Origin: Escherichia coli
GTDB taxonomy: Bacteria > Pseudomonadota > Gammaproteobacteria > Enterobacterales > Enterobacteriaceae
DNA: 431 nucleotides
NCBI RefSeq assembly: GCF_003334385.1
Contig: NZ_QOWN01000183.1
Strand: one strand, 5' to 3'
Within the stretch, counting starts at the first letter, position 1. Each line of letters opens with the position of its first letter. Position numbers and translations under genes: made by a program. Positions 1-431 of this stretch are shown here, in pieces. The notes below the pieces were generated by a model. That model was not told the origin of the DNA. It saw only the letters and a program-made list of their open reading frames with translations, and ran no database searches.

Positions 1-77
1 GCAACCAGCATTAGTGAAAATGAAATACCGACAATCACACACAGGACCTTTGCCGGCGTTATGAGTTTGTCTGACAT
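1..77 (-). CDS. 5' end of a protein-coding gene (start ATG at 77-75, continues beyond window position 1); hydrophobic N-terminus suggests a membrane or secreted protein; identity unknown
   Basis: Minus-strand ATG at 77-75 is the first start after an in-frame TAA (89-87). It is preceded by AAGGGG (88-83) with a 5-nt spacer. The frame stays open to position 1 and reads MSDKLITPAKVLCVIVGISFSLMLV..., with a hydrophobic stretch from about residue 10. The supplied track omits it, apparently because it is partial. Confidence 0.6.
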   Translation of the reverse strand, partial: MSDKLITPAKVLCVIVGISFSLMLV

Positions 78-79
78 AG

Positions 80-175
80 CTACCCCTTAATTGCCACAAT
101 TAACTGGGATACTACCCATAAAAAAGGGATGCTCCAGACCAGCAAAAATTTCCAGTTTGGTAATTGACTAATCAT
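80..175 (-). CDS. Candidate small ORF, 31 aa (MISQLPNWKFLLVWSIPFLWVVSQLIVAIKG), predicted single-pass small membrane protein; hypothetical
   Basis: This is the internal ATG (175-173) of the 70-aa track ORF, in the same frame, with TAG stop at 82-80. AGGGAG (190-185) lies 9 nt upstream. The peptide has a roughly 20-residue hydrophobic core (FLLVWSIPFLWVVSQLIVAI) flanked by K residues. Caveat: the minus strand is T-rich here, which favours hydrophobic codons by chance. Confidence 0.35.
   Translation of the reverse strand: MISQLPNWKFLLVWSIPFLWVVSQLIVAIKG
83..88 (-). promoter_or_regulatory. Shine-Dalgarno / ribosome-binding site (AAGGGG) for the gene starting at 77
   Basis: Minus-strand AAGGGG lies 5 nt upstream of the ATG (AAGGGGtagctATG), a near-ideal spacing for a purine-rich Shine-Dalgarno. 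Confidence 0.6.
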
Positions 176-184
176 GAGTCGCAA

Positions 185-190
185 CTCCCT
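185..190 (-). promoter_or_regulatory. Putative Shine-Dalgarno (AGGGAG) for the candidate small ORF
   Basis: Minus-strand reads AGGGAGttgcgactcATG. The GGAG core is present and the 9-nt spacer is at the long end of the functional range. Confidence 0.35.
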
Positions 191-240
191 AATCAGTTTG
201 CTAAAATCAATCAAGGCAGCCTCCCATAGCTTACTGCCAT

Positions 241-280
241 AAAAACAAAACCCCGCTTGCTGCCAACAAACGGGGTTTTT
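241..280. terminator. Rho-independent (intrinsic) terminator, potentially bidirectional
   Basis: Stem 251-259 (CCCCGCTTG) pairs with 267-275 (CAAACGGGG): 9 bp with one C/A mismatch and five G-C pairs, loop 260-266. It is followed on the plus strand by TTTTT (276-280) and preceded by AAAAACAAAA (241-250), which is UUUUGUUUUU on the minus strand. The minus-strand TAA stop at 287-285 lies 9 nt before the hairpin. Confidence 0.75.
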
Positions 281-284
281 ACTT

Positions 285-431
285 TTATTCACTTACATTT
301 TGCCAGTTCGCAGGATTTCGTGTTATCCGTCCGCCTTGGCCAACGTCATTTATTAGCAAAATATTCTGCTTATCTGTCGATTCCCCAGCACGCCAGCGCG
401 CTCTCCTGGTCTCGCCGGGATACCTGACCGT
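285..431 (-). CDS. 3' end of an upstream protein-coding gene (enters from beyond 431, TAA stop at 287-285); product unknown; frame assignment uncertain
   Basis: Minus-strand frame is open from 431 to the TAA at 287-285 (48 codons: ...TVRYPGETRRARWRAGESTDKQNILLINDVGQGGRITRNPANWQNVSE*), and the stop is followed immediately by the terminator. Caveat: this frame holds several codons rare in enterobacteria (AGG x2, AGA, CGA, CGG, CTA, ATA x2). Another minus frame, stopping at 372-370, and a stop-free plus frame are also open here. Confidence 0.4.
   Translation of the reverse strand, partial: TVRYPGETRRARWRAGESTDKQNILLINDVGQGGRITRNPANWQNVSE

What the first reader, a model, noticed from the sequence alone, without database searches (positions are those of the whole stretch)
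176..292. N-terminal 39 codons of the 70-aa track ORF are probably an artefact
The track ORF starts at a GTG (292-290) that lies inside the last codons of the upstream gene (...GTA AGT GAA TAA) and has no Shine-Dalgarno. Its reading frame then runs straight through the terminator hairpin and A/U tracts (251-280). Only the portion from the internal ATG at 175 has a plausible ribosome-binding site.
Basis: seen in the sequence. Interest (0 to 1): 0.25.

Follow-up and report, generated by a model that had tools for sequence, protein, structure and literature searches.

The report
Mis-started small phage membrane-protein gene
The 70-codon reading frame is an over-extended call: the real gene is a 44-codon phage membrane-protein gene starting at TTG 214, and the stretch in front of it is a transcription terminator that, with a conserved promoter-like site on the opposite strand, may encode a small antisense regulatory RNA.

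Summary
The window is a lambdoid prophage lysis region of E. coli, with its genes on the minus strand. GTG 292 has no Shine-Dalgarno, and the frame runs through a strong terminator hairpin (279-247). Two points are wrong. The real upstream gene, the lysozyme, ends at 372-370, not at 287-285. ATG 175 is also not the only start with a ribosome-binding site.

Comparison of 22 diverged lineages (Escherichia, Salmonella, Citrobacter, Providencia, Pantoea, Yersinia, Actinobacillus, Pseudomonas and metagenomes) shows a conserved protein of about 45 aa (PHROG 6632, function unknown). It starts at the position of TTG 214, behind a strong SD (GGGAGG). So codons 1-26 of the 70-aa ORF are an artefact, while codons 27-39 are real coding sequence.

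Unexpectedly, the hairpin travels with the small gene in every genomic context. In addition, codons 3-6 carry an extended -10 promoter motif (TGnTAnnnT) on the opposite strand in 19 of 21 lineages, and it is conserved at the nucleotide level rather than the amino-acid level. Together these predict a cis-antisense RNA of about 75 nt covering the start codon and SD, an arrangement like SymR/symE. This RNA is predicted from sequence only and has not been shown experimentally.

The parts
370..431 (-). 3' end of the prophage lysozyme (R/rrrQ-like) gene; its stop codon TAA is at 372-370
   Evidence: RefSeq annotation of identical DNA; translation ...GQVSRRDQESALACWGIDR* read
293..369 (-). Conserved non-coding spacer between the lysozyme stop and the hairpin.
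   Evidence: Alignment: conserved with the lysozyme module and also behind other endolysins in SPN3UB and Providencia. The 24-codon ORF has a premature TGA in L004/L005. No Rfam family at threshold.
239..292 (-). Intrinsic-terminator hairpin (core 279..247) with an A-rich 5' flank and a T-tract (250-241). The artefactual ORF start GTG is at 292-290. The hairpin has a bidirectional shape, with T-runs on both strands.
   Evidence: 15-bp stem, 6 GC pairs, then T-tract; -24.2 kcal/mol, z = -5.3; present in 21 of 22 lineages with different upper stems; covariation AU7/GC6/CG4 at one pair
215..238 (-). 5' UTR of the small gene: small stem-loop GGCAG(238-234)/CTGCC(219-215) enclosing the Shine-Dalgarno GGGAGG (225-220)
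   Evidence: Anti-SD pairing -10.2 kcal/mol; a weak stem-loop with different stem sequences in other lineages
80..214 (-). True CDS: 44 codons from TTG 214-212 to stop TAG 82-80. Product: (M)IDFSKLIRELRLMISQLPNWKFLLVWSIPFLWVVSQLIVAIKG, a short charged N-terminal segment plus one hydrophobic helix.
   Evidence: PHROG 6632, E = 1.4e-13 over the full length; cross-genus conservation; 44-aa version deposited for E. coli E2348/69 (CAS08961.1) and 45-aa CDSs annotated in SEN34, Rac-SA53 and pPE4; hydropathy maximum at residues 28-42
173..189 (-). Internal in-frame ATG 175-173 (Met14 of the 44-aa protein) with GGGAG 189-185.
   Evidence: Met conserved in 20 of 21 lineages, Glu10 codon GAG in 20 of 21; SD pairing -8.4 kcal/mol here but only -2.9 in L101; 31-32-aa versions exist in databases
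179..207 (+). Predicted antisense promoter embedded in codons 3-12: weak -35 TCGCAA (179-184), TG (199-200), -10 TAAAAT (202-207)
   Evidence: TGnTAnnnT at one fixed position in 19 of 21 lineages and nowhere else on that strand within 200 nt. Critical bases are nearly invariant while the encoded residues vary. Third-position entropy is 0-0.59 bits against a mean of 1.24.
214..289 (+). Predicted cis-antisense RNA of about 70-76 nt: the 5' end is complementary to the start codon and SD, and the 3' end is the hairpin (247-279) plus a U-run (276-289)
   Evidence: Fold -21.9 kcal/mol, z = -3.4; predicted length 73-86 nt in 19 of 21 lineages with the hairpin. Inferred from sequence, not observed.
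1..77 (-). Start of the next small gene (ATG 77-75), a 43-aa hydrophobic protein (WP_001280935.1, PHROG 4906) that runs off the window
   Evidence: annotation; PHROG 4906, E = 4.5e-21; hydropathy

Best explanation
The 70-codon ORF comes from the rule 'first start codon after a stop'. The real gene is a 44-codon small membrane-protein gene (PHROG 6632) that starts at TTG 214, behind the SD GGGAGG.

The 78 nt upstream (292-215) are non-coding. They comprise an A-rich flank, a Rho-independent terminator hairpin with its T-tract, and a 24-nt 5' UTR.

Shown: the position of the conserved start and SD, the non-conservation of the upstream frame, and the coding-type substitution pattern from codon 27 onward.

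Inferred: the gene has no promoter of its own, since only 32-36 nt separate the hairpin from the start. It would therefore be transcribed only when late-operon transcription reads through the hairpin, for example with Q-antiterminated polymerase.

Also inferred: the hairpin belongs to the small-gene module. It serves in addition as the terminator of a roughly 75-nt antisense RNA, started from an extended -10 promoter embedded in codons 3-6. That RNA would pair with the start codon and SD and keep the membrane protein silent in the lysogen.
For: Start and SD: 22 lineages from 8 or more genera all have GTG, TTG or ATG at the same position, with (A/G)GGAG(A/G) 4-6 nt upstream.

Upstream frame not conserved: stops lie 5-6 codons upstream in three genera, five lineages have no upstream start, and the spacing varies by non-multiples of 3. 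The frame through the hairpin differs between the window and Stx phages (KNPVCWQQAGF versus KTPFVGCKRGF).

Mosaic junction: many E. coli copies share only the lysozyme end, spacer and hairpin, then diverge.

Within the close lineage the extension has 5 variable sites, all at codon positions 1 or 2 and all changing the amino acid, against none in codons 27-39.

Family: PHROG 6632 has a 45-position profile. There are 46 representatives at 50% identity, and the distant ones are 42-53 aa with the same N-terminal motif.

Independent annotators called 44-45 aa in E2348/69, SEN34, Rac-SA53 and pPE4.

Hairpin linked to the gene: it is present in 21 of 22 lineages, whether the module sits after three different endolysins, a baseplate gene, tail gene K, or in TA/defence islands. 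In L101, L102 and L107 it follows a separate terminator of the upstream gene.

Antisense promoter.
Against: There are no translation or transcript data for this locus. A search of the Sakai Ribo-seq supplements found nothing.

TTG is a rare start codon.

PGAP annotates the 70-aa form on hundreds of genomes (WP_001043230.1, about 995 contigs), but it omits it on identical DNA elsewhere, so that is an algorithmic call rather than evidence.

For the antisense RNA: the -35 is weak. The hairpin is somewhat more stable on the sense strand, with more G·U pairs there (27 versus 10; my window choice favoured the sense strand). The lineages are not independent.

In baseplate operons a strong sense terminator should be polar on essential downstream genes, so its strength or role there is unclear.
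Confidence: 0.88

Rival explanations
1. One reading: the only real product is the 31-aa peptide from ATG 175, and everything upstream (176-292) is untranslated.
For: GGGAG lies 9 nt upstream of ATG 175 (-8.4 kcal/mol). This Met is conserved in 20 of 21 lineages, and GAG at the preceding Glu codon in 20 of 21. Gene callers produced 31-32-aa versions. The conserved nucleotides at 199-207 could be explained by the antisense promoter rather than by coding.
Against: Codons 7-13 show coding-type variation: Arg9 is AGG/CGG/CGA/CGC/AGA, Arg12 is CGA/AGA/CGG/CGC, and hydrophobic residues swap L/I/V. Indels are whole codons only. A start codon with a strong SD is kept at position 214 in all 22 lineages. 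The SD in front of the internal Met is weak or absent in several lineages (L101 -2.9 kcal/mol; L108 AGA GAA; L109 CAT GAG). The PHROG profile begins 13 residues before this Met.
Confidence: 0.06
2. Dual start: both TTG 214 (44 aa) and ATG 175 (31 aa) are used, giving two isoforms of a membrane protein, as in the dual-start motifs of holin genes.
For: The same evidence as for the internal start: a conserved Met14 and an SD-like GGAG formed by the R/K-E codons in about 15 of 22 lineages. The gene lies in a lysis cassette in many phages.
Against: The internal SD is not universal, and Met14 and Glu10 may be conserved for protein reasons alone. The module also occurs outside lysis cassettes. The product has one predicted transmembrane segment and is only 44 aa. 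No holin family matched.
Confidence: 0.2
3. The full 70-aa ORF from GTG 292 is a real protein, as annotated by PGAP (WP_001043230.1).
For: The frame is open. It is annotated in many RefSeq genomes. Some Salmonella and Cronobacter predictions also extend upstream.
Against: There is no SD (-1.5 kcal/mol). The frame runs through a -24 kcal/mol terminator. The upstream frame is interrupted, shifted or lacks a start in other lineages. The apparent 'KNP...GF' similarity is dictated by the hairpin arms. Close-lineage substitutions fall only at codon positions 1 and 2. The chance of 26 stop-free codons is about 0.29, so the open frame is not informative.
Confidence: 0.02
4. The hairpin is simply the terminator of the upstream gene and the antisense '-10' is a by-product of the conserved D-F-S-K codons, so no antisense RNA exists.
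For: The hairpin is more stable on the sense strand, with more G·U pairs there. The -35 is poor. The lineages share ancestry. No transcript data exist.
Against: In L101, L102 and L107 the upstream gene already has its own terminator before the module hairpin. The A-run/T-run symmetry is conserved. Residues at codons 3-5 vary (D/Y/N/E/H/S; F/I/L/S/Y; S/I/T) while the -15T, -14G, -12T, -11A and -7T equivalents stay nearly invariant. Codon 5 is always A-N-C, with zero third-position entropy against a mean of 1.24 bits elsewhere. L106 has lost both the hairpin and the -10.
Confidence: 0.4

Closest known systems
PHROG family phrog_6632 (phage protein of unknown function, 45-position profile)
   Same: The 44-aa product matches over its whole length (E = 1.4e-13). 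The Stx-phage and SPN3UB homologs match at E = 4e-28 and 4e-23.
   Different: The family has no assigned function, and there is no Pfam, NCBIfam or PADLOC counterpart. The upstream hairpin and the antisense promoter are not part of any description I found.
SymE/SymR of E. coli (cis-antisense RNA whose promoter is embedded in the target ORF; PMC1891008)
   Same: In the predicted arrangement the antisense promoter lies inside the ORF next to the start codon, and the short RNA overlaps the ribosome-binding site of the sense mRNA.
   Different: By my recollection SymE is a cytosolic protein of about 113 aa. It is MazE/AbrB-related and has its own LexA-controlled promoter (PMC1891008). Here the product is a 44-aa membrane peptide with no sense promoter of its own, and a shared bidirectional hairpin sits upstream. 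There is no sequence similarity. The RNA here is only predicted.
hok/sok-type type I toxin-antitoxin loci, e.g. hokW-sokW of Stx2 prophage Sp5 (PMC8621323)
   Same: A small hydrophobic inner-membrane peptide encoded in a lambdoid or Stx prophage and paired with an antisense RNA. hokW-sokW modulates lysis and phage release.
   Different: There is no homology to Hok. No mok-like leader ORF or fold-back structure was seen. Toxicity is untested, and the antisense RNA is predicted only.
IsrK-orf45-anrP of Salmonella Gifsy-1 (PMC4825925)
   Same: A terminator hairpin is followed directly by a small ORF of about 45 codons that can only be expressed from read-through transcripts. That small ORF has two in-frame starts.
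   Different: In IsrK the sRNA is on the same strand. orf45 starts at AUG, its amino-acid sequence is not conserved, and its stop overlaps the anrP start. No Rfam isrK match was found in the window or in six related loci. It is an analogue, not a relative.
Phage 'morons' (accessory genes inserted between conserved late genes; concept recalled from the HK97/HK022 literature)
   Same: The module is inserted between genes that are adjacent in relatives (rrrQ overlaps rzpQ in K-12 Qin). It also appears in several unrelated late-region positions.
   Different: Classical morons carry their own promoter upstream and a terminator downstream. Here the terminator is upstream, no sense promoter is visible, and the next gene starts 1-8 nt after the stop codon in the six lineages where I read it.

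Membership tests
PHROG 6632 | Full-length profile match to the 45-position HMM | tested here: met
   E = 1.4e-13, residues 1-43 matching profile positions 1-43 of 45. ORF70 matches only at residues 28-69.
Rho-independent (intrinsic) terminator | GC-rich stem-loop immediately followed by a U-tract | tested here: met
   15-bp stem with 6 GC pairs and a TTTTGTTTTT tail; -24.2 kcal/mol, z = -5.3
Rho-independent (intrinsic) terminator | Actual transcript 3' ends at the U-tract in vivo or in vitro | not testable with these tools
   This needs Term-seq, Northern blotting or in vitro transcription.
Type I toxin-antitoxin system | Small (under about 60 aa) hydrophobic, membrane-targeted peptide | tested here: met
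   44 aa. The hydropathy maximum is 2.05 at residues 28-42, and the N-terminal 22 residues carry 4 positive and 2 negative charges.
Type I toxin-antitoxin system | An antisense RNA gene (promoter plus terminator) complementary to the toxin mRNA | tested here: inconclusive
   A conserved extended -10 (19 of 21 lineages at one position) and a bidirectional-shaped hairpin at a fixed distance predict an RNA of 73-86 nt. No transcript evidence exists, and the -35 is weak.
Type I toxin-antitoxin system | Toxicity of the peptide on overexpression, relieved by the RNA | not testable with these tools
   This needs expression assays.
Type I toxin-antitoxin system | The toxin mRNA has its own promoter | tested here: not met
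   Only 32-36 nt lie between the hairpin T-tract and the start codon, and no sigma-70-like site occurs there. Sense transcription must come from upstream read-through.
Moron | Inserted between genes that are adjacent in related phages | tested here: met
   rrrQ overlaps rzpQ in K-12 Qin. The module lies between R and Rz here and in Stx phages, SPN3UB and C. braakii, and between baseplate genes elsewhere.
Moron | Own promoter upstream and terminator downstream of the gene | tested here: not met
   The terminator is upstream. The next gene starts 2 nt after the stop codon in the window and 1 nt after it in Stx phages and SPN3UB.
Holin (dual-start lysis-timing protein) | Match to a known holin family, or the typical 2-3 transmembrane domains or class III topology | tested here: not met
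   No holin family in PHROGs, NCBIfam or Pfam. A single hydrophobic segment. A class II holin is already annotated upstream in the same cassette.
IsrK/orf45 locus | Rfam isrK RNA upstream, and an AUG-started orf45 overlapping anrP | tested here: not met
   No isrK hit. The start is GTG or TTG, the downstream gene is Rz or another small ORF, and the protein sequence is conserved, unlike orf45 (PMC4825925).

The most novel reading that the evidence does not exclude
The hairpin, 5' UTR, 45-aa membrane peptide gene and embedded antisense promoter form one mobile module: a previously undescribed family of cis-antisense-controlled small membrane proteins, like a type I toxin-antitoxin system with SymR-style architecture. 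It is spread through late regions of lambdoid, P2-like and baseplate-bearing phages and through defence/TA islands, from Enterobacteriaceae to Pseudomonas and Burkholderiaceae. In this reading the peptide is locked twice, by an upstream terminator on the sense strand and by an antisense RNA over its ribosome-binding site. It is released only when strong antiterminated late transcription outruns the antisense RNA, which could make it a lysis-phase or abortive-infection effector.
Probability: 0.42. Interest if true: 0.7.

Novelty: new member of a known kind. Interest (0 to 1): 0.45.

Why it matters
At the practical level, one gene circulates in public databases in three lengths: 70 aa on about 995 contigs, plus 44-aa and 31-aa versions. 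Most phage records do not annotate it at all. The comparative data fix the start at TTG 214 and give a rule that can correct hundreds of records.

At the biological level, the terminator in front of the gene is not incidental. It accompanies the gene in every context, and a promoter-like element is written into codons 3-6 on the other strand. If the predicted antisense RNA exists, this is a widespread, unrecognised RNA-controlled small membrane protein in phage late regions, including Shiga-toxin phages such as H-19B. It could then be tested directly for effects on lysis timing, phage release or exclusion.

Tried and rejected
- Rfam on the window (both strands, E up to 1) gave only sub-threshold hits driven by the hairpin (ohsC 21.6 bits against a gathering score of 50). 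Rfam on six related loci found nothing at the module.
- I considered IsrK-orf45 identity and rejected it after reading PMC4825925.
- K-12 Qin was checked for a curated small protein at this position. There is none, because rrrQ overlaps rzpQ.
- Pfam, NCBIfam and PADLOC gave no family.
- A viral-contig scan returned only near-identical copies, 16 unique variants in all. The diversity came from genome contigs, the look-up of encoding contigs and phage tblastn instead.
- A specific antisense promoter, TTGACT-18-CCTAAT inside the ORF, was rejected because it is not conserved in Stx-type copies.
- Antisense promoter-like sites near the 3' end of the ORF (window plus strand 71-100 and analogues) differ between lineages and are not positionally conserved.
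- The second stem-loop between the hairpin and the start codon is weak and shows no strand preference.
- A G·U strand test on the main hairpin favours the sense strand, but my window selection was biased towards it.
- Searching the Sakai Ribo-seq supplements for the peptide or DNA strings found nothing.
- Literature searches for a type I TA or antisense RNA between endolysin and spanin genes found no description. One search failed on a term that was too short.
- I did not run structure prediction, because a 44-aa single helix would not be informative.

Full report
**Where the window comes from**

The 431-bp window matches E. coli chromosomes at 100% identity, within a lambdoid prophage lysis region. 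All of its genes are on the minus strand. RefSeq annotation of identical DNA gives this order: class II holin, a YdfR-family pseudogene, lysozyme, several small hypothetical proteins, an Rz-like lysis protein.

The lysozyme ends at TAA 372-370 of the window. The 70-aa ORF (292..80) is annotated as WP_001043230.1 in some assemblies and left out in others that have identical sequence. That inconsistency already marks it as an unstable algorithmic call.

**Checking the observation**

- GTG 292-290 lies inside GTAAGTGAATAA.
- Its upstream 20 nt pair with the anti-SD at only -1.5 kcal/mol.
- The frame passes through a terminator-like hairpin at 279..247 followed by TTTTGTTTTT, which folds at -24.2 kcal/mol with z = -5.3.
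- ATG 175 has GGGAG 9 nt upstream (-8.4 kcal/mol).

Two statements are wrong:
- The frame ending ...GTA AGT GAA TAA is not the upstream gene. It is an unannotated 24-codon TTG ORF (359..285) that is cut short by TGA in Stx-phage relatives. The real upstream gene stops 83 nt further upstream.
- ATG 175 is not the only start with a ribosome-binding site. In-frame TTG 214-212 follows GGGAGG (225-220) with a 5-nt spacer, which is the best anti-SD pairing of the three candidates (-10.2 kcal/mol).

**Where the real gene starts**

I collected 22 diverged lineages:
- Stx phages and Salmonella phage SPN3UB;
- one-genome-per-species hits in Citrobacter, Providencia, Pantoea, Yersinia and Escherichia;
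- metagenomic and genomic homologs at about 30-50% identity;
- Pseudomonas, Actinobacillus, SEN34 and Rac-SA53 phages.

In every lineage a start codon (12 GTG, 2 TTG, 8 ATG) sits at the position of TTG 214. In most of them, though not all, it is preceded by (A/G)GGAG(A/G).

From that codon onward the protein is conserved: x-D-F-S-K-L-I-R-E-L-R-x-M, then a hydrophobic helix, for 42-53 aa in total. Substitutions have a coding pattern, with Arg codons swapping among AGG, CGG, CGA, CGC and AGA, L/I/V exchanges, and whole-codon indels only. PHROG 6632 has a 45-position profile that aligns with residues 28-69 of the 70-aa ORF.

Upstream of that codon nothing behaves like protein:
- In-frame stops lie 5-6 codons upstream in Providencia, C. 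braakii and Yersinia.
- Five lineages have no upstream in-frame start codon.
- The hairpin-to-start distance is 32, 33, 34, 35 or 36 nt, so the frame through the hairpin shifts.
- Many E. coli prophages share only the lysozyme end, spacer and hairpin, then carry other sequence, so a mosaic junction cuts the 70-aa ORF.
- Among 13 close variants of the window's own lineage, the 26-codon extension has five variable sites, all at codon positions 1 or 2 and all amino-acid-changing. Codons 27-39 have none.

Independent annotators chose the 44-45-aa form in EPEC E2348/69, SEN34, Rac-SA53 and Actinobacillus phage pPE4.

The conclusion is that codons 1-26 are an artefact and codons 27-39 are real.

**The internal ATG**

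Met14 of the 44-aa protein (ATG 175) is conserved in 20 of 21 lineages, and the Glu10 codon is GAG in 20 of 21. In many lineages the R/K-E codons spell GGAG 9 nt upstream of this ATG. In others the SD-like sequence is weak or absent (L101, L108, L109). A second, internal initiation site is therefore possible, at about 0.2 probability. ATG 175 as the sole start is unlikely.

**The hairpin belongs to the small gene**

The module (hairpin, about 33 nt, SD, ORF) occurs in many contexts:
- after three unrelated endolysin types and before Rz (E. coli, Stx phages, SPN3UB, C. braakii);
- between a baseplate spike/V-like gene and the next baseplate gene (Pantoea, Yersinia, SEN34, Rac-SA53, Actinobacillus);
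- after tail gene K;
- in neighbourhoods with PrlF/YhaV, ParE, RelB/YafQ, SIR2 or WYL genes.

A hairpin of -16 to -26 kcal/mol is present in 21 of 22 lineages. It has a conserved lower stem (AAAACCCCG/CGGGGTTTT, with AU/GC/CG covariation at one pair) and lineage-specific but complementary upper stems. In L101, L102 and L107 it follows a separate terminator that belongs to the upstream gene. Its A-run and T-run flanks make it terminator-shaped in both directions.

**A promoter-like element inside codons 3-6 on the other strand**

The reverse complement of codons 3-6 (GAT TTT AGC AAA) reads TTTGCTAAAATC, which is an extended -10 of the form TGnTAAAAT.

Across 21 lineages, TGnTAnnnT occurs on the antisense strand at exactly this position in 19. 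It occurs nowhere else on that strand within 200 nt, and only twice on the sense strand. L108 carries the perfect consensus TGGTATAAT.

The encoded residues vary: D/Y/N/E/H/S at codon 3, F/I/L/S/Y at codon 4, and S/I/T at codon 5. The bases that correspond to -15T, -14G, -12T, -11A and -7T have entropies of 0 to 0.45 bits. The non-critical positions inside the motif have 0.86 to 1.15 bits. Codon 5 is always A-N-C, so its third position has zero entropy, against a mean of 1.24 bits for third positions of codons 7-28, none of which is zero. This is the reverse of the normal codon-position pattern and points to selection on the nucleotides themselves.

A transcript starting about 7 nt downstream would begin opposite the start codon, run across the SD and 5' UTR, and end at the hairpin and U-run. 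The predicted length is 73-86 nt in 19 lineages; L104 has no valid estimate, and L108 gives about 115 nt. In the window it spans plus-strand positions of about 214 to 289 and folds at -21.9 kcal/mol with z = -3.4. L106, the one lineage without the hairpin, also lacks the -10.

The arrangement parallels SymR/symE, where the antisense promoter is embedded in the ORF and the RNA blocks translation (PMC1891008). Its setting parallels hokW-sokW of Stx2 prophage Sp5 (PMC8621323).

**Caveats on the antisense RNA**

- The -35 is weak.
- The lineages are related by descent.
- The hairpin is about 2.5 kcal/mol more stable on the sense strand, with more G·U pairs there (with a selection bias towards the sense strand).
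- There are no transcript data.

The RNA is a prediction, and I put its probability at roughly 0.5-0.6.

**How it most likely works**

Shown: the gene boundaries, the non-coding nature of 292-215, and the conserved linkage of hairpin and gene.

Inferred: with only 32-36 nt between the T-tract and the start codon there is no room for a sense promoter, so the ORF is transcribed only by read-through from upstream. In lambdoid late operons this is what Q-modified polymerase does. In the lysogen, the terminator and (if it exists) the antisense RNA would keep a membrane-active peptide off.

The product has a positively charged N-terminal 22 residues and one hydrophobic helix. By the positive-inside rule this suggests an N-in, tail-anchored inner-membrane peptide. 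Its function is unknown. A lysis-phase or exclusion role is a guess based on context.

**What is known**

No Pfam, NCBIfam or PADLOC family matches. PHROG 6632 is labelled 'unknown function'. In most phage records, including H-19B, nothing is annotated at this site. My literature searches found no description of the module. IsrK-orf45 is an architectural analogue, not a relative.

**Verdict**

As the finding was posed, the answer is ordinary: an over-extended ORF call, with the true start at TTG 214 rather than ATG 175. The follow-up raises its interest. The terminator and an embedded antisense promoter appear to be conserved parts of a mobile small-gene module that has not been described.

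Noticed in passing
window 293-369 (minus strand): A non-coding spacer of about 77 nt between the lysozyme stop and the hairpin (GCAGAATATTTTGCT.A.AAATGA...GGCGGATAACACGAAATCCTG) is as conserved as the flanking coding DNA. It recurs behind different endolysins in SPN3UB and Providencia, but is absent from modules in other contexts. Its function is unknown. The weak Rfam ohsC hit (313..242, 21.6 bits against a gathering score of 50) is driven mainly by the hairpin.
   Followed up: partly
window 1-77 (minus strand): The next gene (ATG 77-75, 2 nt after the TAG) encodes another small hydrophobic protein (43 aa, WP_001280935.1, PHROG 4906, unknown function). Two more tiny ORFs (51 and 28 aa) follow before Rz. 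This lineage has therefore accumulated a string of small membrane-protein genes between R and Rz.
   Followed up: partly
window 71-100 (plus strand): A promoter-like site, CTGACA-18-CACAAT with TG before the -10, lies antisense to the 3' end of the 44-aa ORF. It would give a longer antisense transcript ending at the same hairpin. Similar sites occur at other positions in some lineages (L004, L092, L098) but are not positionally conserved.
   Followed up: partly
window 215-238 (minus strand) and the equivalent 5' UTRs in other loci: A small stem-loop between the terminator and the start codon has different but complementary stem sequences in different lineages: GGCAG/CTGCC, TGACT/AGTCA, CCTTG/CAAGG, CGTTA/TAACG, CCTAT/ATAGG. 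It is weak (-2 to -9.5 kcal/mol) and shows no strand preference. It may modulate SD access or act as an antisense recognition loop.
   Followed up: partly
L009 1330-1601: The same hairpin and a 5' UTR homologous to the module's (CCTTGAGTAAGGCAAGGGAGAAC) precede a 60-aa ORF (WP_001446668.1, MAKCKRILLRLTMKNG...). It looks like a diverged homolog with an internal insertion, and it has a -10-like TACACT at the same gene position but no TG. The 51-aa ORF downstream in the window's lineage (WP_042004856.1, ...VTDDISRALAF...) resembles its C-terminal half.
   Followed up: partly
L008 (NZ_AP027191.1), gene position equivalent to window about 104-102: A copy 94% identical to the window has TTA changed to TGA, truncating the protein to 37 aa. 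PGAP annotates nothing there. This suggests decay in some cryptic prophages.
   Followed up: no
L001 versus L002/L003 (identical DNA): PGAP annotates the 70-aa ORF in some assemblies and omits it in others with 100% identical sequence. Public databases hold 70-, 44- and 31-aa versions of the same gene.
   Followed up: yes
L106 2390-2650: This is the only lineage lacking the upstream hairpin. It is also the only one with no -10-like hexamer on the antisense strand (TGcTGATAT) and with Ile instead of the conserved internal Met. It lies near SIR2 and WYL genes.
   Followed up: no
L099 4130-4218 (minus strand): An Rfam sRNA-Xcc1 match above the gathering score (63.3 bits) lies just downstream of a Bro-N gene, about 1 kb from the small-gene module.
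   Followed up: no
L096 (JAIJJM010000840.1, 'Collinsella sp.' MAG): A 1.3-kb contig binned as Collinsella carries E. coli Stx-type lysozyme-module-Rz sequence. This is probably mis-binning or contamination.
   Followed up: no
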